Below are positions 11,263 to 57,160 of a stretch of 64,000 bases of DNA, in pieces (position 1 is the first letter of the stretch; the number at the start of each line of letters is the position of its first letter). The stretch is from NCBI GenBank assembly GCA_963706735.1, contig CAVPNQ010000071.1, positions 3,563 to 67,562 of the forward strand. Reading direction: 5' to 3'. A program made the translations under genes and the position numbers. The notes under the pieces are model-generated. The model saw only the letters and a list, made by a program, of their open reading frames with translations. It had not been told where the DNA came from and did no database searches. The stretch is from an uncultured Planctomycetia bacterium (GTDB lineage Bacteria; Planctomycetota; MHYJ01; WSZJ01).

Positions 11263-11362
11263 TTCGCGCAGGTGATCGGGACGAAAAAAAACGCGGGAGG
11301 CGGAAGCGCGCCTGGTGCGCTTCCCCTCCCGCGTTTTTTCTCGTCCCGATCACCTGCGCGAA
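11263..11362. repeat. Long inverted repeat abutting tRNA-Cys 3' end
   Basis: TTCGCGCAGGTGATCGGGACGA...TCGTCCCGATCACCTGCGCGAA, ~45-bp near-perfect arms. Confidence 0.85.
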
Positions 11363-11433
11363 GGCGGGTCCCGGATTTGAACCGGGGAATGAAGGTTTTG
11401 CAAACCTTTGCCTTGCCACTTGGCTAACCCGCC
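11362..11433 (-). tRNA. tRNA-Cys(GCA), canonical
   Basis: GGCGGGTTAGCCAAGTGGCAAGGC AAAGG TTTGCAAA ACCTT...GGTTCAAATCC...CCCGCCT; U73; CCA not encoded. Confidence 0.96.
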
Positions 11434-39728: not shown

Positions 39729-41045
39729 CTAGAAGTCGATCTGGGCCCGGAACACGAACACGCTCTCGTTGTCGATCACCTGGCCGCTCGAGGTGAAGAA
39801 CTCGCGCGAATCCTTGTGGTCGTAACGGTAGTACACGTACATCACGGAAACGCGGACGTAATTGTTCGGGTAGTAGTTCAGCCCGAGCGCGACTTCCTGC
39901 GCGTTGCGGCTGCCACCCCAACCCGCGTACTCCTCGAACGTGTCGTCCATGTCGATCGACGAGTACCGGCCGACGATCTGGACGTCGCCGAAGCCGCCGT
40001 CGTGGAACAGCGCCTTCTTGACCTGAGGCCTCTTGTTGTTCGTCCTCGTGCTGCCGAGGAGCCAGAAGCCGACCTCACCCATGTAGGCCGAAACGCGGAA
40101 GGGCGTGTGGCTGCCGCCGAAGTTGTGCTTCGACTTCAGGTAAGAGAACTCGCCCTTCACGGACAGCGGACCGAAGACCCAGACCAGGTCGCAGCCGAAG
40201 CGCGTCCGGTCGTAGTCGGACTGGAACGTGTTCGGACCGTCGTGGAACCGCGTGCCACTGGCCGGGGCGATCATCTCGAACGGAGCGCCGCTGTCACGGC
40301 CCGCGACGCCGCGCGTGTAGCTGACCGCGAACGTCAGGTTCTTGATGACGTCCCCTTCCATCGTGGCGCCCGGCGTGACGGCGAGACGGATGGCGAGGTC
40401 CTTGTCGCTGTTGTTGTCAGATCCGGCGGTGCCGTTGCCGTTGTAAAGCCCGATCCAGTACTGGAAGATTCCCTTGCCGATGTTCCCGAACACCATTCCG
40501 CCCAGGTCGCGCGGCGGAGCGGTGAGGCTGACAAGGGAGTTCTCCGGCATGTCCATCCAGCGCACGTCTTCGAGCTGCTCCTGGGAGTACGGCACCTTCA
40601 TGAGACCGACGCGGATCTTGATTTCCTGCCACTTGTTGAACTCCACCCAGCCCATGAACAGGCTGGAGGCGCCGCCGAAGAACTGCGGGCGCACGTAGCC
40701 GGAGAACGCTTCCCACAGCCGGGCCTCGGCTTCGATGGCGACCTGCTTGATGCTGAAGCTATCGAAGCGATCATCCCCGTCGTTGAACGTCGCATTGTTC
40801 GTGTAGTGGAAGATCGCAAGCGCGCCGATACGGCCAGAGAAGGTGTTGTCGTTGGTCTTGAAGCGCAGGCCGTCATCGAAGTAAGCGCTGACGCCCGCCG
40901 CAGTTGTGGACGGGGCGCCCTCTTTCTTGACCTCCATCTTCCCTTCGAGGGCCTTGACGCGGTCCTCCAGGGTTGGAGATTGGGCCAGCGCGACCGACGA
41001 CGTAAAGAACACACCCAACACGGCGAGCGACACGAAACGTTTCAT
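39729..41045 (-). CDS. OprO/OprP-like phosphate-selective porin
   Basis: Signal peptide, short coiled coil, GLMKVPYSQE, PRDLG, LGLNYY, terminal F. Confidence 0.85.
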   Translation of the reverse strand: MKRFVSLAVLGVFFTSSVALAQSPTLEDRVKALEGKMEVKKEGAPSTTAAGVSAYFDDGLRFKTNDNTFSGRIGALAIFHYTNNATFNDGDDRFDSFSIKQVAIEAEARLWEAFSGYVRPQFFGGASSLFMGWVEFNKWQEIKIRVGLMKVPYSQEQLEDVRWMDMPENSLVSLTAPPRDLGGMVFGNIGKGIFQYWIGLYNGNGTAGSDNNSDKDLAIRLAVTPGATMEGDVIKNLTFAVSYTRGVAGRDSGAPFEMIAPASGTRFHDGPNTFQSDYDRTRFGCDLVWVFGPLSVKGEFSYLKSKHNFGGSHTPFRVSAYMGEVGFWLLGSTRTNNKRPQVKKALFHDGGFGDVQIVGRYSSIDMDDTFEEYAGWGGSRNAQEVALGLNYYPNNYVRVSVMYVYYRYDHKDSREFFTSSGQVIDNESVFVFRAQIDF

Positions 41046-44821: not shown

Positions 44822-46453
44822 TTACTTCGGTTCCGGCGCGGTCCCTTCCCAGTACGCCTTGTAACGGTCCCAGACGAACACGGCGAGCTTGCGACCGAGC
44901 TTGAGGCCGTCCTCGTTGTCCACGCGGATGTGGTAGCCGCCCAGCATGCGCGACTCCGCGGCCATCTCCGCGGTGCTCGAGAACGTGGGAAGCGGCAGAT
45001 CGACATCTCGCGTTGCGGCGATGTCCTTCGCAGGGACGCCCTCGACCGCCTGCATCTCGTACGTCGTGCAGTCGGCCTCGGTCAACTCGCCGGCCATGCG
45101 CTTCGCGACGAACTCGAAGCGATCGCTGCCGCTGAACAGCTCGAGGATCTTGGCGGAGGCGCCGCTGACGGTCGCGTGCCCGGAAGGGTAGCCCGGGAAC
45201 GGCGGCGTCACGAACGTGTCCGGCGAATACGGGTGCCACTCCTCGGCCGGAATGGTCTTGAACCCCTTGCACGGCCCGGCGTAGCCCTTCACCGTCTTGC
45301 CCTTGTAGAAGTAGCGCACGTACCAGTACGGGCGGGACGAATCGAAGCGGTACTTTTCTTCCCAGCACGCCACGAAGGCGTCGAAAGCGACGGCGGCGAT
45401 GGAGAAGAAGAGCTTCACGTCCTGGTCGAGGTTGTGCTTGTCACGGCGGGAGAGGTCCTGGGCGAAGCGGAGCCAGTGGCCCGACTGCCCGGTCGAGCGC
45501 GGGCCGTCACGCATGAATTCGACGATGGCTTTCTGGCGGAGGGAGAGGTTGGCGTTCGCCTCGATGCACTCGTCGACTTCCTTCTTCATCTGGTCGGAAT
45601 TCGCCTTCGGGGGGCCGGGCAGCCGGAACTGGTCCGAGCTGTCGAGGCCGATGGTCTTGACCTTGAACCAGTGCGGCGTGAGGCCCGGGGGGGTGATGCG
45701 CGGAGCCTTGGGGTCCTTCGGGTCGGCGAAGGAGATCTGCATCCAGTGATCGGGGTCCTGCTCCTCGCCCGGGGCCTTGACGGGCTTGTAACCCGTGTAG
45801 TCCGAGTAGGGCTTGCCGTTGGAGCCCTTCTCGTCGCCGAGCTGGTTGGCGCCGTCGCGGTGGCGGTACTCGATGATGGCGGCCGCGACCGTGTTGCCGA
45901 CGCCTTCCGGGGTGGAGACGTCCGTGGACTTGTTGGCCGGATCGATGCCCATCTTGGTCTTGGCGGTTTCCTGGATCCAGGCGACGTCCTCGGAGTAGAC
46001 GTCCTCGAGGCAGCGGAGAACGGCGTAGCCGATCGCCTTCTCCTTGTTCGCCTGCGTGCGCTCAGCGGCGGGCCTGCGGAGCTTGCCGCCGAGGCGCGTG
46101 CCGACGGCCTTTTCGTCGTAGCAGGCCCAGGCGTCGAACATGCCGGTGCAGGAAATCACCATTTCGCGCGAGATGATCGTGGGCTTGGCGCCGACCTTGT
46201 CCACCCGGCGCGCCGCGACCTCGAGGATGATCTCGAGCCAGCGGTAGGCGGCGGAAGGGTTCTCGGCCTTGGCCGCGTGCCAGGGCCACTTGGAAGTGTC
46301 AGCGTTGGTGTCCCAGCTGTACTTCACGCCGGAGGACGAGTCGCCGTTTCCGGAGTTCTTCTCGCCGCTGTCGGAGCAGCCTGCGAGGAAGGCGGTCCCG
46401 GCGGCCAGGACGGTGAGGAGACGCAGGGATGAGCGAAGGGTCATACTGAGCAC
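44822..46453 (-). CDS. Vanadium-dependent haloperoxidase/PAP2-family lipoprotein
   Basis: Lipobox LAGC; KY...SRP, PPFPGYPSGH, SRMLGGYH. Confidence 0.88.
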   Translation of the reverse strand: MLSMTLRSSLRLLTVLAAGTAFLAGCSDSGEKNSGNGDSSSGVKYSWDTNADTSKWPWHAAKAENPSAAYRWLEIILEVAARRVDKVGAKPTIISREMVISCTGMFDAWACYDEKAVGTRLGGKLRRPAAERTQANKEKAIGYAVLRCLEDVYSEDVAWIQETAKTKMGIDPANKSTDVSTPEGVGNTVAAAIIEYRHRDGANQLGDEKGSNGKPYSDYTGYKPVKAPGEEQDPDHWMQISFADPKDPKAPRITPPGLTPHWFKVKTIGLDSSDQFRLPGPPKANSDQMKKEVDECIEANANLSLRQKAIVEFMRDGPRSTGQSGHWLRFAQDLSRRDKHNLDQDVKLFFSIAAVAFDAFVACWEEKYRFDSSRPYWYVRYFYKGKTVKGYAGPCKGFKTIPAEEWHPYSPDTFVTPPFPGYPSGHATVSGASAKILELFSGSDRFEFVAKRMAGELTEADCTTYEMQAVEGVPAKDIAATRDVDLPLPTFSSTAEMAAESRMLGGYHIRVDNEDGLKLGRKLAVFVWDRYKAYWEGTAPEPK

Positions 46454-46716: not shown

Positions 46717-46744
46717 TTGACTTCCCGCGCCTCGCTACTAGCAT
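46717..46744 (+). promoter_or_regulatory. sigma70-type promoter upstream of SAM riboswitch
   Basis: TTGACT-N16-TAGCAT. Confidence 0.55.
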
Positions 46745-46763
46745 GGCGGCCTGACAACTCGGT

Positions 46764-46812
46764 CACGTGGGATTTGCGGCGTATTGCAGCCACGTTAAAA
46801 ACTGCTAAAAAG
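46764..46812 (+). ncRNA. SAM-II (SAM-alpha) type riboswitch
   Basis: CACGTGG GATTTG...TATTGCAG CCACGT TAAAAA CTGCTAAAAAG: P1 ACGUGG/CCACGU, GAUUUG loop, GCAG/CUGC pseudoknot, CUAAA tail match the SAM-II consensus. Confidence 0.8.
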
Positions 46813-46831
46813 CTCCCCGGGCTATCCCGGG

Positions 46832-46871
46832 AAAAACCGCTTCGCCGCGCATCGCGAAGCGGTTTTTTTTT
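46832..46871 (+). terminator. Intrinsic terminator (riboswitch expression platform)
   Basis: AAAAACCGCTTCGC/GCGAAGCGGTTTTT stem plus T9, 50 nt before ATG 46921. Confidence 0.8.
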
Positions 46872-46920
46872 CGATCCGTTCCCGCCGCACGGGACGGAGC
46901 CAGAGACAGGAGGACCCAGA

Positions 46921-47442
46921 ATGAGCAACGAATCCACCCTCGATCGCATCCGCCGGCGCTGGACCGCCTGGGTCGCCGCAGGCCGCTCGCGCGACGGCTT
47001 CTCCCGCGTCGTCGCCCGCGGCTTCGATGACGTCCTCGGCTTCTGCGGCGCCAAGTGCTGGGAACGTGTCAACGTCAAGGCGGGCGACGTGCTCTTCATC
47101 GATCGCGATCTCACCGTCCAGTGGTACCGCGACTCGATCCCCAACTTCGAAAGCCTCGTCGAATCCGTCGGCGCGCTCGGCATTCTCGCGGCCGACGGGC
47201 CGCTCCAGGCCACCGACGGTGACGAGACCTGGTCCTACACGCTCGCGCTGATCGCCGAGCGTTCTCTCGCATGGCTCGCGCAGGGCCAGCCCGCCCGCGC
47301 CGAACTGCTCGTCGCCCTCGCCCGCGTCAAGTCCGTCCTCCACAAGCACGACGAAGCCGCCGATCTCCACGCCGAGGCCCGCAAGGCCTGGGACAAGGGG
47401 GCGAAGGCGAAGCGCAAGGGAGCGAAACGCGCCGCGATCTAG
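46921..47442 (+). CDS. Hypothetical protein downstream of SAM-II riboswitch
   Basis: AGGAGG RBS, GC3-rich frame, 173 aa. Confidence 0.8.
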   Translation: MSNESTLDRIRRRWTAWVAAGRSRDGFSRVVARGFDDVLGFCGAKCWERVNVKAGDVLFIDRDLTVQWYRDSIPNFESLVESVGALGILAADGPLQATDGDETWSYTLALIAERSLAWLAQGQPARAELLVALARVKSVLHKHDEAADLHAEARKAWDKGAKAKRKGAKRAAI

Positions 47443-47581
47443 TGGTTCGACACGCTTGATTCCGACGGTTGCGTCCTTCGGACGCAATCCGCGGAATCAA
47501 AGCTGACTCACCACTCGCCGTCGCGGCCGTTCCCGTCTCCCGCTCGCGTTTCCCCATTTCGCTTCCCCAAGGAGGTCACCC

Positions 47582-47857
47582 ATGCCCGTCCTCGAAGTCA
47601 CCAACGAAACGTCCTGTTCCGCCTGCGGCGGTTCCCGCTGCGCGCACGACTCCGTTCTCGCCCGCCTCCTCGGTTGCGAAGAGGCCGGACTGTGCTTCGG
47701 CTGCCTGGCGTTCAGCTTCGGTCTCGAAGAAGAGCGTTTTGCAAATGGGGCTGTCGCGCACCTTCGCAAGAAGTCATGCCTGTGGTTATCCTTCGAGCGC
47801 GCGGCCGGCTGCGGCTGCAGGCTCGACCAGGCCCGGCATGGCGGAGTGAGCGCTTGA
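47582..47857 (+). CDS. Small Cys-rich protein (CxxC...C...CxxC), probable metal-binding
   Basis: AAGGAGG RBS; 9 Cys in 91 aa. Confidence 0.72.
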   Translation: MPVLEVTNETSCSACGGSRCAHDSVLARLLGCEEAGLCFGCLAFSFGLEEERFANGAVAHLRKKSCLWLSFERAAGCGCRLDQARHGGVSA

Positions 47858-47880
47858 AGCGACGCGACCGGAAGAGGGAG

Positions 47881-48039
47881 ATGCCGGATCTGCCCGAACC
47901 CGTCCCGGTGGAAAGCGGGGGGCCGCCCGGCTTCATTGCGCCGATGAACTGGACAGAGGATGAGATCTTCGAGGCGATGAAGGCGTTCGAGGACAGGGTC
48001 CGCCAGGAGCGAGGCTTACCGCCCGGCGATCCGGCGTAG
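47881..48039 (+). CDS. Small hypothetical protein
   Basis: GAGGGAG before ATG; 52 aa. Confidence 0.35.
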   Translation: MPDLPEPVPVESGGPPGFIAPMNWTEDEIFEAMKAFEDRVRQERGLPPGDPA

Positions 48040-48186
48040 TGGTCGTTTCCGGAGAATCGGCCCAGGGAAGGCTCGCGATAAATCGCGGCGAGATTCATAG
48101 GAAAAACCTATCGGACGCATTGCGCAATCTCCCCTAACATCCTCCCGTCCGGGGAAGGACTTTCACACTCACTTTCGGAGGGGAAG

Positions 48187-49485
48187 ATGAAGCAGCTTCG
48201 TACGCTCGCCGTTCTCGCAGCGCTCGCCATCAGCGCAGCCGCCCAGACGCCGACTGACCGTGACAAGGAAATCGACGACCTGAAGAAGCGGCTCGAAGCG
48301 CTCGAGAAGGAGAAGCCCGGCGCTTCCTCCGCGAGCAGCACTCCCACCTGGAAGGACCTCGTCTCCCTCGGCGGGCACCTCAAGTGGTACGGCTTCCTCA
48401 GGCTCGACAGCCACTACACGGATTCCGCCTTCGACAATGCGCGCTTCCCCACCTTCGTCCGCGCGGAGGAGACCATCCCGTTCCTCGCCGGGGTTTCCGC
48501 GCCGGAGCGCAACGACGACAACTTCGTCATGAGCGCGCGCCTGACGCGCCTCGGCTTCGACATCGACTCGGGCAAGATCGCCATGCTCGGCGACGCTTCC
48601 GCGTCCGGTAAGCTCGAAATCGACTTCTTCGCGCTTCCCAGCTCCGAGAGCCGCGCCGTGCCGCGGATGCGGCATGCGTACGGCAAGGTGGGTTGGGACT
48701 GGCTGTACCTTCTGTTCGGGCAGACGTCGGACATGGCGTCGCCGCTGAACCCGAGCCTGAACCCTGACAACGTGCTGTGGAACTGGGGCAACACGGGCGA
48801 CCGCCGCCCGCAGGTCCGGGTGGTCGCCGAACCCAAGGTCGGCGAGAAGCTCAAGTTCTACATCGGCGTGATGGCCGGGCAGGAAGGCGCCATCCGGAAC
48901 GTCGATGTTGACGGGCTTGGCGTGGTCGATGGCGACGACGCCGGCTGGCCGAAACTCGAGGGCCGCCTGGCGATCAGCGTCCAGCACTGGGTCGAAAAGA
49001 AGTGGATCACGCTGGGGCTGTCAGGCATGACGGGCGAGGAGCAGGTTGACGGTGGCGGCGTTGGCGGCCGGCACTTCTTCCGCACCGACATGTGGGCGGT
49101 GGACTTCGAGTTCCCCATCCTCGAGCAGCTTTCGTTCAGGATGGAGTACTGGCGCGGCCGGAACCTCGCGGACATCCGCGGCGGTATCGGGCAGGGCCTT
49201 CTGGCGAGCGGCAGCGATCTCCGCGCGAGCGGAGGCTGGGCGGAGCTGAAGGTGGCGCCGGTGAAGTGGTACGCGGCGACGCTGGGGTACTCGCGCGACA
49301 ACCCGCACGAGAAGAACCTGCCGTTCGGGGCCCGTTCGGAAAACACGGTGTACTACCTCATGAACACGTTCACGTTCGACCCGTTCCTGGTGTCGGTGGA
49401 CATCTCCCACTGGCGCACGGAGTTCGTCGGGCTCAACGCCGGGCGCGCGTGGCGGTACACGCTCACCCTGCAGCTGTCGTTTTAG
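48187..49485 (+). CDS. Outer-membrane porin (DcaP-like)
   Basis: Signal peptide, coiled coil, YGFLRLD, TRLG, PRMRHAY, GQT, RRPQVR, terminal F. Confidence 0.85.
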   Translation: MKQLRTLAVLAALAISAAAQTPTDRDKEIDDLKKRLEALEKEKPGASSASSTPTWKDLVSLGGHLKWYGFLRLDSHYTDSAFDNARFPTFVRAEETIPFLAGVSAPERNDDNFVMSARLTRLGFDIDSGKIAMLGDASASGKLEIDFFALPSSESRAVPRMRHAYGKVGWDWLYLLFGQTSDMASPLNPSLNPDNVLWNWGNTGDRRPQVRVVAEPKVGEKLKFYIGVMAGQEGAIRNVDVDGLGVVDGDDAGWPKLEGRLAISVQHWVEKKWITLGLSGMTGEEQVDGGGVGGRHFFRTDMWAVDFEFPILEQLSFRMEYWRGRNLADIRGGIGQGLLASGSDLRASGGWAELKVAPVKWYAATLGYSRDNPHEKNLPFGARSENTVYYLMNTFTFDPFLVSVDISHWRTEFVGLNAGRAWRYTLTLQLSF

Positions 49486-49537
49486 GCCGGACCGCCTCAT
49501 GTTTCGCCCGGGTCGAGTCCCCTCTCGGTCCGGCCTA

Positions 49538-49590
49538 CCCTGAGCGAGCCCGCCGAAGCCCGCAGGGCGAAGGCGGGGCGAGTCGAAGGG
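49538..49590 (+). repeat. REP-like element, extended variant
   Basis: CCCTGAGCGAG-CCCGCCGAAGCCCGCAGGGCGAAGGCGGG-GCGAGTCGAAGGG. Confidence 0.7.
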
Positions 49591-49706
49591 TGCCGGAGTT
49601 CGGCGTACTGCAGCAGAAGTACGCTCGTGCTGACGTGACCTTCCCTGATGGCCGCGCGTTTCCGCTTCGGCGGGGCGCGCGGCCCCTCGCTCTCCCGGAG
49701 CCCCGG

Positions 49707-50429
49707 ATGGATCCCACGCCCGTCCCCGACGCCGTCTGCGAAGGCGGCGACCTCGATTGCGGAAGCGGTCTCCTGCTGCTGATCCGGGAGGCGATGCAAC
49801 CGCTGCGGGCGGGCGGTGTGCTGGAAGTGCGGAGCCGTGAGATCAGCGTGAAGGAGGATCTGCCGGCGTGGTGCCGGATGGTGGGGCACGAGATGCCCGC
49901 GTCCAGGTCGGGGGACGCAGGGTCCACGAGCTACTTCATCCGCAAGAAGTCGGCGGACGACGGGCTCAAGGCGGACCTCGACAAGGCGCGGTCGTTCGAG
50001 TGGCCGGTGCGGGTGCGTTGGACCGGCGGGATGCAGGCGAAGGCGTTCGCGCGCAACCACTCGTTCGTCGTCGGCCAGCCCGCCAGCTTTGAAACGGCCG
50101 ACCCCGCTCCCGCGGCCGTCGAATACCTGCTCGCATCCCTCGGCGGTTGCCTTGCCGTCGGGTTCCAGTGGCGGGCTTCGCGCAAGGGGCTCGCGGTCCG
50201 GAATCTGGAAGTCGCCCTTCGCGCGAAGGCCGACAACATCCTGGTGTTCCTGGGCGTCGAGGACTCCGGCCACCCCGGCCTCTCGTCGCTCGAGGCCACG
50301 ATCTACGTCGACGCGGACGGGGAGGACGACGAACTCCGCGCGATCTGGGAAGACACGGTGAAGCGTTCGCCCGTCGCGCAAACGCTTCTCCGGGGCGTCC
50401 CGGTCCGGACGACCCTGAGGCGCGCATGA
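49707..50429 (+). CDS. TusA-like sulfur carrier fused to OsmC/Ohr-like domain
   Basis: GDLDCGSG...EDLPAWCRMVGHE (TusA); PAAVEYLLASLGGC...RSPV (OsmC, second Cys replaced by Ser). Confidence 0.87.
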   Translation: MDPTPVPDAVCEGGDLDCGSGLLLLIREAMQPLRAGGVLEVRSREISVKEDLPAWCRMVGHEMPASRSGDAGSTSYFIRKKSADDGLKADLDKARSFEWPVRVRWTGGMQAKAFARNHSFVVGQPASFETADPAPAAVEYLLASLGGCLAVGFQWRASRKGLAVRNLEVALRAKADNILVFLGVEDSGHPGLSSLEATIYVDADGEDDELRAIWEDTVKRSPVAQTLLRGVPVRTTLRRA

Positions 50430-50494
50430 ACCCCCGCCCCCACACCTGAACCCTCTTCCGTTGCGTCGGCCGTGTTGCCGCCGCGTGCGAAGTT

Positions 50495-50587
50495 GGGCCG
50501 GTGGAGGGGACCGGGTCCCCCGCGGTCTGCAAAACCGTCCGGGTGCCGCCTCGCGGCGCTGCTGGGTTCGACTCCTAGGCCGGCCTT
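50495..50587 (+). tRNA. Non-canonical tRNA with tRNA-Sec-like body and GCA (Cys) anticodon
   Basis: Acceptor GGCCGGU/GCCGGCC (+G-U), D stem GGGGAC/GUCCCC, anticodon arm GCGGU-CUGCAAA-ACCGU, 7-8 bp variable arm, T arm CUGGG-UUCGACU-CCUAG, U discriminator. Confidence 0.85.
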
Positions 50588-50599
50588 GAGAGGAATCCC

Positions 50600-51739
50600 A
50601 TGACCAGTCTTCCGGATTTCGCCGTGACGGTCGTCGGCAGCTGGCCGCGCCCCGCGTGGCTGCTGGAGGCGATGAAAAAGAAGCGCGCGGACCTGGCGCG
50701 CTTCCAGGACGACGCGTGCCTCCTGGCGATCAAGTGGCAGGAGGACGCGGGGGTGGACATCGTGACGGACGGGGAGCAGCGGAGGGACAACTTCTATTCG
50801 TTCCTGTGCGACCGGCTGGAAGGGCTGTCGCTGATGACGATGGCGGACCTGCTCGAGTATGTGGAGGACAAGGCGGGGTTCGAGAAACTGCTGTCGGCGC
50901 TGGACGTGCCGGCGTACGCGATCCGGAACCCGACGGTGACGGCGAAATTGAAGGTGAAGAAGCCTCTGGCGATGGAGGACTTCCGCTTCCTGCGGGAACA
51001 CACGAAACGAGCCGTGAAGGTGACCTTGCCCGGGCCGTACCTGCTCTCGCGGTCGATGTGGGTGAAGAAGCTGTCGGAGGGGGCGTACCCGACGAGGGAG
51101 TCGCTGTGCGCGGACATCGTGGCGATCCTGAGGGAGGAGCTGAAGGCGCTGGCGGCGGCGGGCGTGGAGGTGGTGCAGTTCGACGAGCCGGTTCTGACGG
51201 AGCTGGTGTTCGCGGGGAAGTCGGCGACGCGAACGTTCATGTGCGCGGCGCTCGCGGCCAGCGCTTCCCCCGAGAAGGAGCTGGAACTGGCGGTGGACCT
51301 GATCAACCGGGTCGTAGACGGCGTGACCGGGCCGGTGGTCGCGATGCATGTCTGCCGCGGGAACTGGAGCCGGGACGAGGGGGTGCTGCTGCAGGGGGCG
51401 TACGACCCGCTGGTGCCGTGGTTCGCGAAGATGAAGGTGAAGCAGTTCGTGCTGGAGTACGCGACGCCGCGCGCGGGGTCGCTGTCGGCGCTGAAGGGGC
51501 TGGCGCCGGGGTCGATGGTCGGGCTGGGGATCGTGAATCCGCGGACGGACGAGATCGAGGCGGTGGACGGGATCGTGAAGAAGGCGCGGGAGCTGGCGGA
51601 GTTCGTGCCTCCCGGGCGGATTCACCTGAATCCCGACTGCGGGTTCGGGACGTTCGCCGAGCGGCCGATGGCGACCGCGGAAGTCGCCTACAGAAAATTG
51701 TGCGCCCTGGCGCAGGCCGCCCGGGTGCTTCGATCGTAA
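50600..51739 (+). CDS. Cobalamin-independent methionine synthase II family (single-barrel MetE-like) protein
   Basis: VGSWPRP, TDGEQRR, QFDEP, MHVCRGN, LEY, NPDCGF Zn-ligand motifs. Confidence 0.92.
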   Translation: MTSLPDFAVTVVGSWPRPAWLLEAMKKKRADLARFQDDACLLAIKWQEDAGVDIVTDGEQRRDNFYSFLCDRLEGLSLMTMADLLEYVEDKAGFEKLLSALDVPAYAIRNPTVTAKLKVKKPLAMEDFRFLREHTKRAVKVTLPGPYLLSRSMWVKKLSEGAYPTRESLCADIVAILREELKALAAAGVEVVQFDEPVLTELVFAGKSATRTFMCAALAASASPEKELELAVDLINRVVDGVTGPVVAMHVCRGNWSRDEGVLLQGAYDPLVPWFAKMKVKQFVLEYATPRAGSLSALKGLAPGSMVGLGIVNPRTDEIEAVDGIVKKARELAEFVPPGRIHLNPDCGFGTFAERPMATAEVAYRKLCALAQAARVLRS

Positions 51740-51791
51740 GAACCGGCGCGCGGCGTGGGGACGCCGCGATGCCCCTTTACGGGAGGTCGGG

Positions 51792-51940
51792 ATGAAGCGG
51801 TTGTCCTTGCTGGTTGCGGCGGCGTTCGCCGTCGGGTGTGCCGGCGGCGGGGAGACGAAGGAGTCCTCGGACTTCGTCGTGTCGAAGGCCGGGAAGTCGA
51901 AGACGTTCGAGGCGAAGCACGAGCTGAAAGTGACGGTGTC
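51792..51940 (+). pseudogene. Truncated lipoprotein gene interrupted by IS remnant
   Basis: GGAGG RBS, lipobox FAVGC; coding character is lost where the antisense transposase fragment begins. Confidence 0.5.
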
Positions 51941-52080
51941 GTGGCGCAAAAGCGCCGCGAGGACCTGGGTCATCATGTCGTCCAGGGCTTCCTTGTGGTC
52001 GAAGCGGAAATCGGACAGCGTGTGCGGGCAGACCGCAACCCCGCCGCAGATCCAGCTTCCCGACAAGCTCCCACATCTCC
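51938..52080 (-). mobile_element. IS1182-family transposase remnant
   Basis: WICGGVAVCPHTLSDFR...DDMMTQVLAAL and WELVGKLDL fragments. Confidence 0.7.
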
Positions 52081-52094
52081 CGGATTCAGGGCGC

Positions 52095-52210
52095 CAGAGC
52101 CCGTGAAAAAACCTGTGCGTCGGGCGGAGTCGGCCCGCAACAGAAAAACCTCTCAAACCTCCGTCACTGGGCCGACGCAGCCTGACGCGCGGGTTTTTTC
52201 TCGGGCTCTG
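52095..52210. mobile_element. MITE-like 116-bp inverted-repeat element
   Basis: CAGAGCCCG(T/A)GAAAAAACC terminal IRs extending ~31 bp. Confidence 0.6.
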
Positions 52211-52958: not shown

Positions 52959-53483
52959 CTATTGCCCCACCGGCTCGTCCTCGACATCCTCCGTCCGGAA
53001 CCGGTCATCGGGCGGCAGCTTGGCCAGCTCAGCCTTCACCATGTCCTGGTGCTCGACCTCTTCCTGGCGCAGCTCGGTGAACAATCCACGCACGCCGGGG
53101 TCGGTGATCGCGCGAAGCGCCGCGTCGAAAAACGCCCACGCCTTCTCCTCGCACCGAAGCGCCGTATTGAGTGCCTGCTGCGGCGTCATGTGCGTCCGCG
53201 CCTCGTCGTAGTCGGGCGCTTCCACGTCGAACAGCATCTCGCGGCGGACGGTGACCGGGTCGAGGGGGAAGAGCTTGCGCCGGCGGTCGGCGAGCTCGGC
53301 GCGGTGCTTTTCCTCGTTGGCGGCCATGAAGCGGTAGAAGCGCCCCGCGTCGGGGGTGTGGTGGGTTTCCATCTGGGAAGTGAACTCCTCGTAGCGCTCT
53401 TTGGCTTCTTCCTCGATGAAGATGGCCAGGTCGAGCGCATCGCGGAGAGAGATGGTTGCGAAGTCGATTCCGGTGACGGGCAT
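52959..53483 (-). CDS. Ferritin-like/rubrerythrin family protein
   Basis: LAIFIEEEA..Y, EEKH, EEVEH diiron motifs. Confidence 0.9.
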   Translation of the reverse strand: MPVTGIDFATISLRDALDLAIFIEEEAKERYEEFTSQMETHHTPDAGRFYRFMAANEEKHRAELADRRRKLFPLDPVTVRREMLFDVEAPDYDEARTHMTPQQALNTALRCEEKAWAFFDAALRAITDPGVRGLFTELRQEEVEHQDMVKAELAKLPPDDRFRTEDVEDEPVGQ

Positions 53484-53493
53484 CGGGCCCCCT

Positions 53494-54384
53494 TTATTTC
53501 TGGAGGAACATGTCGAGGATGCGGTCGCGGTCGCGCGCTCCCGGCGAGAGTTCGGCCTGGCGCTCGCGGACGAGCTGGTCGAACGTCGGCGGCGGGTTCG
53601 GGTCGCGGAAGAAGACGCCGGTGTAGAGCTCGCGGCCGTAGTCCTGCGCCAGCCCAAGCGCCCGGATGCGGTCCTTCGGGTCGTGCTTCAGGCTCTCGAG
53701 CGTCTTCATCCGTTCCTTCTGCGCCTTGATCTGCCCGTACTCCTCGCCGTACGTCACGCACGGCGACTGGATGTTGACGAAGGAGAAGCCCGGAAAGCGG
53801 ATCGCTTCTTCGATCAGAGCGGTGAGCCCCGGAAGGTCCGCCGGCGTCCCCTGCGCCACAAACGGCGCGCCGTAGGACAGCACGTACATGAGCGGGTTGA
53901 GCGGCTCTTCGAGGCTCCCGTACATCGACGTTACGGTCTTCAGCCCGCGCGGCGACGTCGGCGACAGCTGGCCCTTCGTCAGCCCGTAGATCTGGTTGTC
54001 CATCACGATGTACGTCAGGTCGAGGTTCCGCCGCACCGCGTGCGCCACGTGCCCGCCGCCGATCGAGAACCCGTCGCCGTCGCCGCCCGCCACCAGCACC
54101 AGCAGCTCGGGATTCGCAATCTTGATCCCCTGCGCGATCGGCAACGCCCGCCCGTGCACCGAGTTGAACCCGTACGCCGTCGTGTACCCCGGGATCCGGC
54201 TCGAACACCCGATCCCCGACACGAACGCAATCTCGTGCGCCGGCCGCCCGATCGCCGCCAGCGCCCGGTACACCGCCGACACCACCCCGTAGTCCCCGCA
54301 CCCCGGACACCAGATCGGCTTCAGGTCGCTCCGGAAATCCTTCGCCTGAAGCGCAGGAACCGGCATCGGCATCGCAAGTGTCAT
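53494..54384 (-). CDS. korB: 2-oxoacid:ferredoxin oxidoreductase beta subunit
   Basis: WCPGCG, SGIGCS, HGR, GGDGD, YGLTKGQ, SPCVTY. Confidence 0.93.
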   Translation of the reverse strand: MTLAMPMPVPALQAKDFRSDLKPIWCPGCGDYGVVSAVYRALAAIGRPAHEIAFVSGIGCSSRIPGYTTAYGFNSVHGRALPIAQGIKIANPELLVLVAGGDGDGFSIGGGHVAHAVRRNLDLTYIVMDNQIYGLTKGQLSPTSPRGLKTVTSMYGSLEEPLNPLMYVLSYGAPFVAQGTPADLPGLTALIEEAIRFPGFSFVNIQSPCVTYGEEYGQIKAQKERMKTLESLKHDPKDRIRALGLAQDYGRELYTGVFFRDPNPPPTFDQLVRERQAELSPGARDRDRILDMFLQK

Positions 54385-54386
54385 GG

Positions 54387-56174
54387 TTATTCCTCCTGGG
54401 GCTGGGAATCGTCGGACTGCTGAAGCGCCATCGCCTGCTCGCGCAGGCGGTTCACGATCTCCGCCGGCTGGAACGGATTGGCGCCGTCCCTCGCGAACGA
54501 CTTCAGGCCCGCCGGCACGTCGATGTACATCCGCAGGACCCGGTACAGCTGACCCTGGTGGCTCTGCTCCACCACGAGCCCCGCCTTCATTCCCGCAAAG
54601 AAATCCCGGAACGCTTCCTCCGCCACCGGGTACAGGAGCCGTGGCACCAGCAGCTTCACCTGAAGCCCCTTCCGCGCCGCCAGCTTCAGTGCCTCCCGCG
54701 CCACCCCCGCGATACTTCCCCAGGCGATCAGCCCCAGCGGCGCCTTCGCGTCCCCGTACGTCTGGAACAGGTCCTTGCGCATCCGGATCGGGTCGAGCTT
54801 GCGGAAGCGCTTCTCGTTCATCTTCGCGTGCATCACGCCGCCGGAGACCGGCGCGCCCTTCTCGTTGTGTTCGATCCCCGCGGCGAGGTAGGTGCCGCCG
54901 AGCATGCCGGGGTGACTGATGGGGGAGACGCCGGAGTCTGTGAAGCGGTACCGGGCGTAGCCGTTCTGGAGTTCGGCGGGGGAGGGGCGAAGGCGATCGA
55001 TGCGGCGGAACTTCGAAGTGTCGATCGGGTCGCAGGTTTCCTTGCGCTGGGAGATTTCCTGGTCGGAGAGGATGACGACGGGGGTCTGGTACTGCTCGGC
55101 CATGTTGAAGGCTTCGACGGTGATCTCGAAGGAGTCGGCGACGCAGGTCGGGGCGAGGACGGGGCGGAGGACGTCGCCGTGGGCGGAGAAGGCGGCCTGG
55201 AAGAGGTCGGACTGTTCGGTTTTCGTCGGCAGTCCGGTCGAGGGGCCGCCGCGCTGGACGTTCACGAGCACGAGCGGAAGTTCGGCGATCGTCGCGAGGC
55301 CGAGCATTTCCGTCTTGAGCGACATGCCGGGGCCGGAGGTGGCGGTCATGGCTTTCTTGCCGGCGAACGACGCCCCGACGGCCGCGCCGATCCCCGCGAT
55401 TTCGTCCTCGGCCTGCAGCACCGCGCCGCCGTACTTCCAGATCTCGCGCGTCAGGAACTGCATGATCTCCGTGGACGGCGTGATCGGGTAGCCGCCGAAG
55501 AACTGGCACCCCGACCAGATCGCCGCCGCGCCGCACATGTCGTTCCCGTCGGTCAGCATCTTCGTCGTCGCCGCCGGCGGCCGCGCCATCGTCCGCGGCG
55601 TCTTCAGCGGATGCTCCGCCGCGTACTTCTTCCCGGCCGCCAGCGCGCGCTCGTTCGCCTCCAGCAGCTCCGGCCCCTTCTTCGCCAGCCGCTTGCGCAG
55701 CCCCTTCATCACCCCCTCGCCGCCGATCCCGAACCACCCGGCGATCAGCCCGAGGATGACCGTGTTCTTCGCCTTGTCCGTCTTCGCCGACTCCTTCGCC
55801 ATGTCCGTGATCGGCACCGCGAACACTTCCGCGGGCGTCACGCCCGTGAGCGGCAGTTTGTCGGGCGCCACCCCCGTCTTGCTTTCATAAATGACGATCG
55901 TGTTCCCGCCGACCGGCAGCTCGCCCCCGAACTTGAGAAAGTCCTCCCAGTTCAGCGCAATCGCCACGTCCAGCGTCCCGCCGGGATTCAGCACCGGCTC
56001 CGTCGAGAGCCTCACCCGGCAACTCGACTCCCCGCCCCGGATCTGCGACCCGAAGCTCTTCGTCATCATCGCGTGGTAGCCCTCCATCGCCACCGCCGCC
56101 GTCAGCGACTCGCCCGCCGACACGATCCCGTCCCCGCCCGATCCCGCCATCCCGATGACAAGATCCGTCGTCAT
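54387..56174 (-). CDS. korA: 2-oxoacid:ferredoxin oxidoreductase alpha subunit
   Basis: GSGGDG, IRGG, GYPITP, QAEDE, TSGPG, QRGGPSTG. Confidence 0.94.
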   Translation of the reverse strand: MTTDLVIGMAGSGGDGIVSAGESLTAAVAMEGYHAMMTKSFGSQIRGGESSCRVRLSTEPVLNPGGTLDVAIALNWEDFLKFGGELPVGGNTIVIYESKTGVAPDKLPLTGVTPAEVFAVPITDMAKESAKTDKAKNTVILGLIAGWFGIGGEGVMKGLRKRLAKKGPELLEANERALAAGKKYAAEHPLKTPRTMARPPAATTKMLTDGNDMCGAAAIWSGCQFFGGYPITPSTEIMQFLTREIWKYGGAVLQAEDEIAGIGAAVGASFAGKKAMTATSGPGMSLKTEMLGLATIAELPLVLVNVQRGGPSTGLPTKTEQSDLFQAAFSAHGDVLRPVLAPTCVADSFEITVEAFNMAEQYQTPVVILSDQEISQRKETCDPIDTSKFRRIDRLRPSPAELQNGYARYRFTDSGVSPISHPGMLGGTYLAAGIEHNEKGAPVSGGVMHAKMNEKRFRKLDPIRMRKDLFQTYGDAKAPLGLIAWGSIAGVAREALKLAARKGLQVKLLVPRLLYPVAEEAFRDFFAGMKAGLVVEQSHQGQLYRVLRMYIDVPAGLKSFARDGANPFQPAEIVNRLREQAMALQQSDDSQPQEE

Positions 56175-56380
56175 GGTGTCCCCTGGGTCCGGGTCCCCGC
56201 GCGCCCGCAAATTCCACTCATGCACAGGACCCGGTTCGGAGGGCGGTGGCGGCTCGATGAAGTCGATCTCTTCGCCCTTCCAGCCCGCAAGTTTCAGGGA
56301 AGCGGCCCGGGGCGGCAATCGAAACTTGGAAGCGCGATCCGGAGTGGACTCCGGCGCGGAGGGCGGGTAGAAAGCGGCCC

Positions 56381-57160
56381 GTGACCTCCAACCCCGCGCT
56401 TCGGAATCTCCGGTCCGCGCGCGGCGCCGCAGCGCTGCTGCGGCAGATCCCCGGCCTGTCGCCCGGCGTCGCACGTGAAATCTGGAGCGCCCTTCGCGCC
56501 ATCACCGCCGGAACCCGCGCGTTCACCCTCCGCGTCTGCCGCAAGGCCGGCCGGCGCCTCGGCCACGCCGTCCCGCCTCTCCCCGTCCGCGTCCCGCGCA
56601 CCACCGACCGCACCGACCCGGCCTGGTACCGAACCCGGGCACGAGGCGGAAGCGTCCGCCTCGAGCTCCTGCGCGCCCTCAAGCGGCTGGCCGTCGCCGA
56701 ACTGCCGCTTCTGGAAGCGCACCTCGGCCGCCGCGAGAGCGCGCTTTTCCGGCTGCGGCCGCGACCCGCCCGATTCCCCCGAGGCGTCCCCGCCGTCGAG
56801 TTCCGCCGCGCCGCCCGCCGCTGGCTCCACCTCATGACCGGCAAGGCGACCTGGCTCAGCCTGCGCCTCGCCGAAGTCGCCGCGACCGCCACCGGCAGCC
56901 CCGCCAGCGCCGTCGAAACCCTGCGCGTCTGCGCCGACGTCGCTTCCAGGCCCCAGCTCTACGACCCATTCAACACGTTCGCGGCATTCCTGGAGGCGTT
57001 CCACCGCCTCGCGGCGAAGCGCGGGGCGCTCGCGGGGCTGCTCGATGATTCTGCCGGCCCGTCCGTTTTCCGGCGGATCGCGCTCGCCGGGCCGGGAAAG
57101 GGCCGGTGGCATTCGAAGCGCGCACGACGGCTCGTGCGGGCCTGCCGGCCGGCCCGCTGA
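56381..57160 (+). CDS. Arg-rich hypothetical protein
   Basis: Strongly GC3-biased frame filling the gap; no recognised motif. Confidence 0.55.
   Translation: MTSNPALRNLRSARGAAALLRQIPGLSPGVAREIWSALRAITAGTRAFTLRVCRKAGRRLGHAVPPLPVRVPRTTDRTDPAWYRTRARGGSVRLELLRALKRLAVAELPLLEAHLGRRESALFRLRPRPARFPRGVPAVEFRRAARRWLHLMTGKATWLSLRLAEVAATATGSPASAVETLRVCADVASRPQLYDPFNTFAAFLEAFHRLAAKRGALAGLLDDSAGPSVFRRIALAGPGKGRWHSKRARRLVRACRPAR

What the first reader, a model, noticed from the sequence alone, without database searches (positions are those of the whole stretch)
46717..51739. Candidate new tRNA-linked sulfur-relay/methionine system: SAM-II, unknown protein, Cys-rich protein, porin, TusA-OsmC, odd tRNA, MetE-like
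Seen: all elements are co-oriented over 5 kb, starting from a SAM-type riboswitch. Known: TusA proteins carry persulfide on Cys, OsmC domains perform thiol chemistry, and single-barrel MetE homologs (HxC, E, C Zn ligands all present) activate thiols for alkyl transfer but lack the folate-binding half. Inference: a SAM-repressed route to homocysteine/methionine or to organosulfur scavenging in which Cys-tRNA supplies or receives sulfur or a methyl group. Co-transcription of the whole stretch is not shown; the core three elements at 49707-51739 are the tightest unit.
Basis: partly seen in the sequence, partly recalled or inferred. Interest (0 to 1): 0.85.

Follow-up and report, generated by a model that had tools for sequence, protein, structure and literature searches.

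The report
Sec-like cysteine tRNA inside sulfur-relay operon
A Planctomycete carries an unusual selenocysteine-tRNA-shaped cysteine tRNA wedged into a widespread, uncharacterised sulfur-carrier/methionine-synthase-like operon that sits behind a SAM riboswitch; the operon usually exists without the tRNA, but this tRNA type keeps turning up next to sulfur/selenium-handling genes in several phyla.

Summary
They are: a promoter-like site; a SAM-II-class aptamer with a terminator (30.1 bits against a cut-off of 36, but conserved in the genus and 36.3 bits in one relative); a 173-aa protein of no family; a Cys-rich protein; a porin-like protein; a TusA-like::OsmC fusion; a 91-nt tRNA(GCA); and a single-barrel MetE-like enzyme with its Zn ligands conserved.

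The tRNA belongs to the selC*-type tRNACys family of Mukai 2017. It has a Sec-type 6-bp D stem, a long variable arm and U73, but here a 7/5 acceptor/T branch. The genome also has a true selC, SelA and SelB, and one CysRS. I found no SelB* or CysRS*.

The protein module (Cys-rich, TusA, DsrE, TusA::OsmC, MetE-like, often with a porin) is a conserved operon, and it normally lacks the tRNA:
- 0 of 22 close metagenome loci carry it.
- 2 of the 4 operons in the genus lack it.

Even so, 14 of 57 independent loci of this tRNA type, in three phyla, have YedE, TusA, DsrE, rhodanese or Se/S-carrier genes within 3.5 kb. That is a new and unexplained linkage.

Verdict: partly supported. It is a new variant of known kinds, of moderately high interest.

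The parts
46717..46744 (+). sigma-70-like promoter match (TTGACT-16-TAGCAT)
   Evidence: 9 of 12 matches; 1 site found against 0.4 expected in shuffles. A consensus match only.
46757..46829 (+). SAM-II-class (SAM_alpha-like) riboswitch aptamer
   Evidence: RF00521 30.1 bits (gathering 36), E 5e-4. Orthologous sites score 36.3, 30.1 and 28.9 bits in G006, G003 and G001. The core is invariant in the 4-genome alignment.
46832..46871 (+). intrinsic terminator (14-bp stem plus U9), likely the expression platform of the riboswitch
   Evidence: fold -46.7 kcal/mol, z -3.6. Conserved in the genus.
46921..47442 (+). 173-aa protein of no known family, the first gene behind the riboswitch
   Evidence: no family; no convincing look-alike. 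Conserved at 52-94% in G006, G001 and G003.
47582..47857 (+). 91-aa Cys-rich protein (CxxC...CxxC...C), Zn-ribbon-like; paralogues head the TusA-DsrE module elsewhere
   Evidence: 5 Cys invariant in 7 of 7. Atlas score 0.95 to clusters of hypothetical proteins, with a rubredoxin-like zinc-ribbon lead; position in operons.
48187..49485 (+). porin-like outer-membrane protein
   Evidence: weak DcaP match, 18.7 bits, below gathering. 31-36% homologues lie upstream of the operon in L122, L126 and L128; 58-91% in the genus.
49483..49537 (+). 12-bp hairpin after the porin stop codon, without a U run
   Evidence: -26.7 kcal/mol, z -2.1. Role unknown; it may divide the stretch into two transcription units.
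49707..50429 (+). TusA-like::OsmC fusion protein (240 aa)
   Evidence: OsmC 4.5e-14; TusA 2.6e-5, below gathering. Cys18 (DxDCGSG) and Cys56 invariant in 13 of 13. The OsmC-domain Cys is present in only 8 of 16.
50496..50586 (+). selC*-type tRNACys(GCA): 7-bp acceptor stem, Sec-type 6-bp D stem, long variable arm, 5-bp T stem, U73; no encoded CCA
   Evidence: Identical in G003.
50600..51739 (+). single-barrel MetE-like Zn enzyme (379 aa); SD-like GAGAGGA lies directly after the tRNA
   Evidence: Meth_synt_2, 86.6 bits; below every NCBIfam cut-off; HxC and C ligands conserved; 68-76% identical relatives among the best 119 listed, sources naming four phyla or classes; sequence.
51792..52106 (+). 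104-aa small protein with a lipoprotein-like N-terminus (read by eye), conserved downstream in the genus
   Evidence: 55-65% identity over 62 aa in G003 and G001. No family.
52179..52195 (+). first terminator-like site on the + strand after the riboswitch terminator

Best explanation
The stretch holds two things that happen to be joined in this lineage.

(1) A conserved, uncharacterised sulfur-relay operon. Its parts are a Cys-rich Zn-ribbon-like protein, a porin, a TusA-like::OsmC fusion and a single-barrel MetE-like Zn enzyme. In relatives it also has a second TusA, a DsrE-like protein and sometimes the YedE transporter. In this genus it lies downstream of a SAM-II-class riboswitch with a terminator. 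It is therefore probably switched on when SAM or methionine is low. Inferred mechanism: sulfane sulfur is taken up, carried as persulfide on TusA and DsrE cysteines, and handed to the MetE-like enzyme. That enzyme's Zn site activates a sulfur nucleophile for alkyl transfer, giving homocysteine or methionine, or scavenging organosulfur.

(2) A selC*-type tRNACys. It has a GCA anticodon and U73, so it should be charged by CysRS, together with a selenocysteine-tRNA-type D arm and a long variable arm. It sits 66 nt after the OsmC stop codon and 13 nt before the MetE-like start codon. It is therefore almost certainly co-transcribed and cut out by RNase P and 3' processing.

The tRNA is not needed by the operon. 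It is a lineage-specific insertion whose expression is thereby coupled to a sulfur/selenium-trafficking operon, as it is in other phyla.

Shown: the anatomy, the conservation, and the absence of the tRNA from most operons. Inferred: the chemistry, the co-transcription and the charging.
For: tRNA identity:
- ARAGORN calls tRNA-Cys(GCA). The best Rfam model is tRNA-Sec at 41 bits.
- In the alignment of 53 distinct family members, the cloverleaf is paired in 86.1% of cells against 80.4% when shuffled (0 of 500 shuffles reach it). The D stem is 98.7% paired with 2 compensatory pairs, and the T stem is 97% paired with 4 compensatory pairs.
- U73 is invariant, 53 of 53. 12 of 55 loci encode CCA.
- The family as I retrieved it covers Desulfobacterota/Thermodesulfobacteriota and Clostridia. 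These overlap the groups named for selC* in Mukai 2017 (PMC5389517, passages read). It also covers Planctomycetota, Acidobacteriota and Spirochaetes.
- The genome has a separate true selC (74.5 bits), SelB, SelA and one CysRS.

Operon:
- In 10 of 22 close MetE-like metagenome loci, OsmC abuts the MetE-like gene. In 9 of them TusA-like, and in 8 a TusA2-DsrE pair, precede it.
- G015 has a TusA-like::MetE-like fusion.
- The Zn ligands and the TusA Cys are invariant.

tRNA dispensable:
- 0 of 22 close loci carry it.
- In the genus, the operon occurs without the tRNA in G001 and G007, and the tRNA pattern was not found anywhere in these 87-89% complete genomes.

SAM switch.

No + strand terminator-like site lies between 46870 and 52179.
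Against: - The aptamer is below the Rfam gathering score in the window. It is absent from the operon in the 5 loci searched outside the genus: 4 metagenome loci and G015.
- A hairpin after the porin gene and a 222-nt gap may separate the riboswitch unit from the TusA-OsmC/tRNA/MetE-like unit.
- Co-transcription is not shown. The reads laid were contigs only.
- The genome has MetH and three Cys/Met-type PLP enzymes, so there is no pathway gap that demands this operon.
- The OsmC-domain Cys is conserved in only 8 of 16. This weakens a thiol-redox role for that domain.
- The window's genome lacks the TusA2, DsrE-like and YedE genes by tblastn (82.6% complete).
- The tRNA stays inside or beside this module in three rearranged forms (G000/G003, G006, G015). 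It neighbours S/Se genes in 14 of 57 loci elsewhere. That is hard to reconcile with a mere passenger.
Confidence: 0.55

Rival explanations
1. The tRNA is a working part of sulfur/selenium chemistry. The aminoacyl group on this Sec-shaped tRNA would be the substrate or scaffold of a relay-fed reaction. That reaction could be tRNA-dependent formation of Cys, Sec or a persulfide, by analogy with SelA or SepCysS, or a transfer to or from the MetE-like enzyme.
For: - Linkage recurs in 7 distinct arrangements across Planctomycetota, Desulfobacterota/Thermodesulfobacteriota and a Clostridia-labelled MAG.
- Those arrangements include: tRNA followed by YedE, TusA/DsrE and Se_S_carrier (L072, L091, L105); YedE, tRNA and TusA (L112, L081); tRNA followed by a four-rhodanese protein 240-670 nt downstream (L079, L080, L089, L110, L113); and TusA2, DsrE, tRNA and TusA::MetE-like (G015).
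- A second tRNA subtype in G165 precedes TusA, YedE and a porin.
- The same tblastn queries hit only this locus and one rhodanese gene in the 5.3-Mb genome.
- The Sec-type D arm, the feature SelA reads (my recollection, from no call), is kept with compensatory changes.
Against: - 43 of 57 tRNA loci have no such neighbour within 3.5 kb.
- The MetE-like operon works without the tRNA in most organisms.
- No tRNA-binding enzyme such as a SelA, SepCysS or aaRS paralogue lies in the cluster.
- The queries came from tRNA-adjacent genes, so the enrichment estimate is biased.
- Related genomes are not independent observations.
Confidence: 0.2
2. The module handles selenium rather than sulfur. The tRNA would be a tRNASec mimic tied to selenium supply, for example a Cys back-up or a regulator read by SelA or SelB.
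For: - YedE (Sulf_transp), a YedF-like TusA and Se_S_carrier (PF11823) lie beside the tRNA in Desulfobacterota loci.
- The OsmC domain has a weak match to NCBIfam 'OsmC-related (seleno)protein' (36.8 bits against a cut-off of 95).
- All 8 tRNA-bearing Planctomycete genomes tested, and G000 itself, have SelA.
- Mukai 2017 states that selC*-bearing genomes have the full Sec machinery.
Against: - SelA is found in 45 of 61 sampled genomes of the phylum, and also in G001 and G007, which lack the tRNA. So 8 of 8 is not informative.
- The GCA anticodon cannot read UGA.
- The acceptor/T branch is 12 bp, not the 13 bp of bacterial tRNASec.
- No selB* or cysS* is present.
- A SAM riboswitch points to methionine rather than selenium.
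Confidence: 0.12
3. The linkage has no functional meaning. The tRNA gene landed in the intergenic gap by rearrangement, or as a recombination or integration hotspot. The MetE-like protein is simply a B12-independent core methionine synthase.
For: - The tRNA is absent from most operons and from 5 of 8 genomes of the genus.
- Gene order around it is shuffled within the genus.
- Most loci of the tRNA family have unrelated neighbours.
Against: - The tRNA is retained with the module in G015, a different family of the same class where the MetE-like protein is only 45% identical.
- Its placement is tight and co-oriented, 13 nt before a start codon.
- It recurs beside S/Se genes in other phyla.
- No integrase or repeat signs were seen, but I did not search for them specifically.
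Confidence: 0.13

Closest known systems
selC* tRNACys (Mukai et al. 2017, Nucleic Acids Res 45:2776, PMC5389517)
   Same: [quoted passage not shown] It carries cysteine identity (U73, GCA). It sits in a genome that also has selC, SelA and SelB. The family I retrieved includes the same bacterial groups.
   Different: Here the acceptor/T branch is 7/5, with a 3-nt linker and a 5-bp anticodon stem, not 8/4 with a bulge. No selB* or cysS* lies next to it. The host is a Planctomycete, a phylum not named in the paper's main text. Linkage to TusA, DsrE, YedE, rhodanese or MetE-like genes is not mentioned in the main text. I could not see the supplement.
Bacterial tRNASec (selC, Rfam RF01852)
   Same: The D-arm architecture and long variable arm; 41 bits to the model.
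   Different: The anticodon is GCA, not UCA. The discriminator is U73, not the G73 I recall for tRNASec (G73 is recalled, from no call). The acceptor/T helix is 12 bp, not 13 bp. The genome's real selC lies elsewhere (G000:C41, 74.5 bits).
Core (single-barrel) MetE-type methionine synthases MesA-MesD (Price et al. 2021, PMC7857596) and the solved single-barrel homologues 3rpd and 1ypx
   Same: A Meth_synt_2 barrel alone, about 380 aa, with the His-x-Cys and Cys Zn ligands conserved and no folate-binding half.
   Different: It scores below every NCBIfam methionine-synthase cut-off (best 174 bits against 406) and has only distant PDB matches (1e-24). Its partners are TusA, DsrE and OsmC, not corrinoid proteins or MesX. 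The paper's main text does not mention such partners.
TusA/DsrE (TusBCD-type) persulfide relays and YeeE/YedE-YeeD/YedF uptake pairs
   Same: TusA-fold carriers with an invariant Cys, a DsrE-family partner, and a Sulf_transp membrane protein in G015 and in other tRNA loci.
   Different: The carrier next to the MetE-like gene has the motif DCGSG. I recall the usual motif as CPxP, but no call checked that. It is fused to OsmC or directly to the MetE-like enzyme. The end-acceptor is a MetE-like enzyme rather than a tRNA thiolase or Dsr/Hdr complex.
SAM-II / SAM_alpha riboswitch (RF00521, RF01726)
   Same: The conserved core and hairpin match the model end to end. It lies 5' of an operon with a methionine-synthase-like gene.
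   Different: It scores below gathering in the window, occurs in Planctomycetota, and is followed by an intrinsic terminator. My recollection, not a tool result, is that SAM-II usually acts on translation.

Membership tests
selC* tRNACys (Mukai 2017) | Cysteine identity: U73 discriminator and a GCA (or UCA) anticodon | tested here: met
   GCA anticodon. U at 50586, invariant in 53 of 53 family members and followed by CCA in 12 of 55 loci.
selC* tRNACys (Mukai 2017) | tRNASec-like body: long variable arm and a long D stem with a tetraloop | tested here: met
   6-bp D stem, 98.7% paired with compensatory changes. The loop is 3 nt in the window and 4 nt in most members. The variable arm is about 20 nt. 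The best Rfam model is tRNA-Sec, at 41 bits, below gathering 47.
selC* tRNACys (Mukai 2017) | Acceptor and anticodon stems longer than canonical (8/4 with a bulge in delta-proteobacteria) | tested here: not met
   7-bp acceptor stem (pair 7 formed in 34 of 53), 5-bp T stem, 5-bp anticodon stem. The paper says each phylum has its own arrangement. The details are in a supplement I could not see.
selC* tRNACys (Mukai 2017) | The genome also holds the selenocysteine machinery | tested here: met
   selC 74.5 bits, SelB 310.9 bits, SelA 552 bits. SelD was not searched.
selC* tRNACys (Mukai 2017) | Charged with cysteine and active in translation | not testable with these tools
   Needs aminoacylation and reporter assays.
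SAM-II / SAM_alpha riboswitch | Match to the covariance model at the gathering score | tested here: inconclusive
   Window 30.1 bits against gathering 36. The orthologous site in G006 scores 36.3. The core is invariant in 4 genomes, so there is no covariation to count.
SAM-II / SAM_alpha riboswitch | Binds SAM and controls the downstream genes | not testable with these tools
   A terminator follows directly. Binding was not tested.
Cobalamin-independent methionine synthase catalytic barrel (Pfam PF01717) | Domain match above gathering, with the Zn ligands | tested here: met
   86.6 bits against gathering 21. H250, C252 and C347 conserved in 16, 16 and 15 of 16, and invariant in 23 of 23 in alignment A4.
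Known methionine synthases (MetE; NCBIfam equivalogs for core enzymes) | Score above the curated cut-off of any equivalog; a folate-binding N-terminal barrel for MetE | tested here: not met
   The best is PRK04326 at 174.3 bits against 406; all 9 models are below their cut-offs. The protein is 379 aa and has only one barrel.
TusA sulfur carrier (PF01206) | Domain match and the conserved active-site cysteine | tested here: inconclusive
   24.4 bits against gathering 28.6. Cys18 is invariant in 13 of 13. The partner TusA2 of relatives passes at 42.9 bits.
OsmC/Ohr peroxiredoxin-like family (PF02566) | Domain match; a pair of catalytic cysteines | tested here: inconclusive
   The domain scores 53.1 bits against gathering 27.5. 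It has only one Cys, conserved in 8 of 16 homologues. It has the fold, but is probably not a classical peroxidase.

The most novel reading that the evidence does not exclude
selC*-type tRNACys is a dedicated partner of sulfur/selenium-trafficking systems. In the boldest version, the amino acid on this Sec-shaped tRNA is made or altered with relay-delivered sulfur or selenium, which would be a bacterial tRNA-dependent route to Cys, Sec or a persulfide. Alternatively, the tRNA reports S/Se status to the operons it heads. In this reading the Planctomycete TusA-DsrE-OsmC-MetE-like operon is one output of that system.
Probability: 0.17. Interest if true: 0.9.

Novelty: new variant of a known kind. 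Interest (0 to 1): 0.6.

Why it matters
The work leaves three useful results.

(1) The biological role of selC*-type tRNACys is unknown. A repeated, co-oriented linkage to YedE, TusA, DsrE, rhodanese and Se/S-carrier genes gives the first context-based lead, and it extends the family to Planctomycetota and Acidobacteriota.

(2) The TusA-DsrE-TusA::OsmC-MetE-like operon is widespread in the metagenome and genome records searched. It joins a persulfide relay to a Zn alkyl-transfer enzyme and has no described function. It could be a new way to make homocysteine or methionine, or to salvage organic sulfur.

(3) It shows a SAM-II-class riboswitch in Planctomycetes working through a terminator.

None of this is proven. 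The strong claim, that the enzyme needs the tRNA, is unlikely.

Tried and rejected
- RNA evidence: the sequencing-run search found mostly DNA metagenomes. The four RNA or possibly-RNA runs laid are kept only as contigs.
  - A 446-nt contig of X15 (RNA only by guess) spans 50464-50892, and a 151-nt contig of X20 (probably DNA) spans 50518-50668.
  - The two true RNA runs cover only parts of the OsmC and MetE-like genes, at 88-95% likeness.
  - This shows neither transcription nor co-transcription.
- Complex prediction: MetE-like with the TusA-like domain gave no verdict (score 0.00). It is no evidence either way.
- ESM Atlas: unnamed clusters and one zinc-ribbon lead for the Cys-rich protein, and nothing usable for the 173-aa protein.
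- 8/5 Sec-type fold: ARAGORN's extra G1·U pair is not supported. Relatives start one base later, and L106 encodes CCA right after the U.
- G001: an apparent TusA-OsmC-MetE-like triple fusion (660-aa open frame) is not real. The genes abut with a stop codon between them.
- SelA co-occurrence: not informative. 10 of 10 tested genomes have it, against 45 of 61 in the phylum sample.
- SelB near the tRNA: 0 of 57 loci. The CysRS query in that script was probably read in a wrong frame, so that half of the test is void.
- Loose pattern scan of 401 phylum genomes: 15 genomes matched, against 1 match to the reversed control pattern.
  - After inspection, six carry this tRNA type: G000, G003, G006, G015, G251 and G269.
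  - G044 has a doubtful copy. G097 and G165 carry a second subtype.
  - The matches in G279, G144, G043, G052, G094 and G048 are other things.
- Rows dropped: L079 and L114 (3' half missing) and three duplicate sequences were left out of alignment A1.
- Bias from my search pattern: the invariance of the columns GGCCGG, AGGG and C.C.CGG.CTGCAAA in A1 comes from the pattern itself.
- Variable arm: its alignment is poor (53.9% paired).
- Enrichment: the figure rests on tblastn with queries taken from tRNA-adjacent genes, and on one genome as background. It is an estimate, not a test.
- Literature: no paper linking selC* tRNACys with YedE or TusA, or linking TusA, DsrE, OsmC and a methionine synthase in one operon, appeared in searches.
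  - I saw matching passages of PMC5389517, PMC7609411 and PMC7857596.
  - I did not see their supplements, which may show locus maps.

Full report
**What is there**

The window is contig C71 of an 82.6% complete, 5.3-Mb genome. On the + strand from 46717 to 52195 lie, in order:
- a promoter-like TTGACT-16-TAGCAT site;
- a SAM_alpha/SAM-II-like aptamer at 46757-46829, scoring 30.1 bits for RF00521 (gathering 36, E 5e-4) and 27.3 bits for RF01726, and not reported at gathering threshold;
- a 14-bp terminator hairpin with nine U;
- a 173-aa ORF of no family;
- a 91-aa Cys-rich ORF;
- a porin-like ORF;
- a TusA-like::OsmC fusion;
- a long tRNA with a GCA anticodon;
- a 379-aa MetE-like ORF;
- a 104-aa ORF.

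The next terminator-like site on this strand is at 52179. I make two refinements. A 12-bp hairpin and a 222-nt gap follow the porin gene, so one transcript from the riboswitch to the MetE-like gene is possible but not shown. And the tRNA runs from 50496 to 50586, not 50495-50587.

**The riboswitch**

The same aptamer, a small hairpin and the terminator stand before the orthologue of the 173-aa gene in three other genomes of the genus. They score 36.3 bits in G006 (at or above gathering), 30.1 in G003 and 28.9 in G001. The aptamer core is identical in all four, so covariation cannot be counted. The small hairpin shows compensatory changes in G006. No such element was found within 5 kb upstream of the homologous operon in four metagenome loci or in G015. 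I take it as a real SAM-II-class switch that is specific to this genus at this operon.

**The tRNA**

ARAGORN calls tRNA-Cys(GCA). The best Rfam model is tRNA-Sec, at 41 bits against a gathering score of 47. The genome has a normal 72-nt tRNACys in the window (11362-11433) and a true selC elsewhere at 74.5 bits.

An exact pattern taken from the window and one relative found 57 loci in the genome collection. They come from Planctomycetota, Acidobacteriota, Desulfobacterota/Thermodesulfobacteriota, Clostridia-labelled MAGs and Spirochaetes. On 53 distinct sequences the cloverleaf I wrote is paired in 86.1% of cells, against 80.4% in shuffles (0 of 500 reach it) and 64% or less when slid. Its parts are:
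- a 7-bp acceptor stem;
- a 3-nt linker;
- a 6-bp D stem, 98.7% paired, with two pairs showing compensatory change;
- a 5-bp anticodon stem;
- a long variable arm;
- a 5-bp T stem, 97% paired, with four compensatory pairs.

The discriminator is U in 53 of 53, and CCA follows in 12 of 55 loci. Columns fixed by my pattern are invariant by construction.

This matches the description of selC* tRNACys in Mukai et al. 2017: a tRNASec look-alike with U73 and GCA, in genomes that have the Sec machinery (passages read). It does not match the 8/4-with-bulge branch described there for delta-proteobacteria. That paper's main text names Firmicutes, Thermodesulfobacteria, Nitrospirae and Proteobacteria, not Planctomycetes. 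It does not mention sulfur genes, YedE, rhodanese or operons.

The window's genome has one SelB, one SelA and one CysRS, with no SelB* or CysRS*.

**The protein module**

The MetE-like protein has very many relatives: 7712 at E ≤ 0.001 among the 8000 candidates scored. The best 119 listed are 68-76% identical, and their sources name Planctomycetes, Methylomirabilis, Brocadiae and Alphaproteobacteria. It has only the catalytic barrel (Meth_synt_2, 86.6 bits) and stays below every NCBIfam methionine-synthase cut-off. Its nearest solved structures are the single-barrel proteins 3rpd and 1ypx, at E 1e-24 and 3e-21. His250, Cys252 and Cys347 are conserved.

Among the 22 close relatives found in metagenomes (53-74% identity):
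- 10 have an OsmC domain gene ending 3-47 nt before the MetE-like start;
- 9 of these have the TusA-like domain in front of it;
- 8 have a further TusA plus DsrE-like pair;
- some also have the Cys-rich protein and a porin further upstream (Pfam).

In G015 (same class, different family) the TusA-like domain is fused directly to the MetE-like enzyme, and YedE, the Cys-rich protein, TusA and DsrE lie upstream. Cys18 of the TusA-like domain (DxDCGSG) is invariant, 13 of 13. The single Cys of the OsmC domain is present in only 8 of 16.

This is a conserved operon that couples persulfide carriers to a Zn alkyl-transfer enzyme. I found no paper describing it. The genome also has MetH and three Cys/Met-type PLP enzymes, so the operon is an accessory route.

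**Does the operon need the tRNA?**

It does not, on present evidence. None of the 22 close metagenome loci has the tRNA. In the ten loci where OsmC abuts the MetE-like gene there is no room for it.

The eight genomes of the genus divide as follows:
- MetE-like gene found: G000, G001, G003, G007.
- tRNA found: G000, G003, G006.
- G001 and G007 have the operon with the two genes abutting and no tRNA. The pattern was not found anywhere in these 87-89% complete genomes.
- G006 has Cys-rich, TusA, DsrE and the tRNA, but no MetE-like gene.

**Why the tRNA is still interesting**

Within Planctomycetes it stays with the module through three different arrangements: between OsmC and MetE-like; after DsrE; and between DsrE and the TusA::MetE-like fusion.

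Of the 57 pattern loci, 14 have a sulfur/selenium-trafficking gene within 3.5 kb, mostly downstream on the same strand:
- tRNA, then YedE, TusA/DsrE, Se_S_carrier and a carbohydrate-kinase-like gene in L072, L091 and L105;
- YedE and TusA around the tRNA in L112 and L081;
- a porin before the tRNA, and YedE-TusA on the other strand after it, in L103;
- a four-rhodanese protein 240-670 nt downstream in L079, L080, L089, L110 and L113;
- the Planctomycete module in L086, L094 and L096.

A second tRNA subtype in G165 is followed by TusA, YedE and a porin-like gene.

With the same queries and threshold, the 5.3-Mb genome of the window has only this locus and one rhodanese gene. A random 7-kb window would therefore hold such a gene well under 1% of the time. 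This estimate is biased, because the queries came from tRNA-adjacent genes and relatives are not independent. Seven distinct arrangements in three phyla are nonetheless hard to put down to chance. The other 43 loci show unrelated neighbours, such as outer-membrane barrel and DUF1573 genes in Acidobacteria.

**Mechanism**

My best reading has confidence 0.55. The operon assimilates or salvages sulfur for methionine when SAM is low. Sulfane sulfur is carried on TusA and DsrE cysteines and delivered to the MetE-like Zn site, where a sulfur nucleophile is alkylated. The tRNA is co-transcribed, because only 13 nt (including the SD-like GAGAGGA) separate U73 from the ATG. It is then processed out, charged by CysRS, and is not required by the enzymes.

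Shown: anatomy, conservation, fusion, dispensability.

Inferred: chemistry, transcription, charging.

Rivals:
- the tRNA takes part in S/Se chemistry (0.2);
- the system is about selenium and the tRNA mimics tRNASec for SelA or SelB (0.12);
- the linkage has no meaning (0.13).

SelA co-occurrence does not discriminate: 10 of 10 tested genomes have it, including two without the tRNA, against 45 of 61 in the phylum.

**Verdict**

The finding is a new variant of known kinds: a selC*-type tRNACys in a new phylum and a new genomic context, embedded in a widespread, undescribed sulfur-relay/MetE-like operon behind a SAM-II-class switch. Interest is 0.6. The strong claim of a tRNA-dependent enzyme system is unlikely. 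The cross-phylum linkage of this enigmatic tRNA to sulfur/selenium-trafficking genes, and the uncharacterised operon itself, are worth testing.

Noticed in passing
G000 contigs outside the window: C96:40838-40925 and 40934-41030; C7:6919-7009; C57:8241-8328; C153:10964-11057; C129:2686-2781: ARAGORN calls further over-long tRNAs. One is an 88-nt tRNA with a UUA (ochre-reading) anticodon that scores 48.3 bits on the tRNA-Sec model, above gathering. Next to it is a 97-nt tRNA-Pro(UGG). There are also three tRNA-Ala of 88-94 nt and a 96-nt tRNA-Pro(GGG). They may be allo-tRNA-like species.
   Followed up: no
G000:C121:40049-42984: A cluster of at least six tRNA genes (Cys, Ser x3, Tyr, Asn) within 3 kb, including a third tRNA-Cys(GCA) of 74 nt. 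It could be a tRNA array or a mobile element.
   Followed up: no
window 44822-46453 (-): A 543-aa protein with DUF6851 and a vanadium-chloroperoxidase-type helical bundle/PAP2 domains. It is divergently placed, directly upstream of the riboswitch region.
   Followed up: no
window 52959-53657 (-): A rubrerythrin/ferritin-like protein. Long ORFs on the same strand follow at 53494-56474. By eye they resemble 2-oxoacid:ferredoxin oxidoreductase subunits, but I did not check this with a tool.
   Followed up: no
L041/L051/L052 (G144:C15:47459-47869): Three tandem copies of about 170-195 nt, each ending in the 3' half of a nearby tRNA-Pro(CGG) gene. This looks like repeated attachment-site duplication.
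   Followed up: no
L050 (G048:C1:3007400-3008100): An array of alternating tRNA-Leu and tRNA-Tyr genes, in which one tRNA-Tyr-like copy carries a GCA (Cys) anticodon.
   Followed up: no
L089 and L113 (two contigs of one MAG): Two copies of the tRNA, each followed by a multi-rhodanese gene. In L089 the gene is split over several frames, so it may be decaying or mis-assembled.
   Followed up: partly
L129, L130, L132, L134: In a more distant branch of the MetE-like family (53-57% identity), the OsmC-domain gene lies about 2.2 kb upstream, with unexamined genes in between.
   Followed up: no
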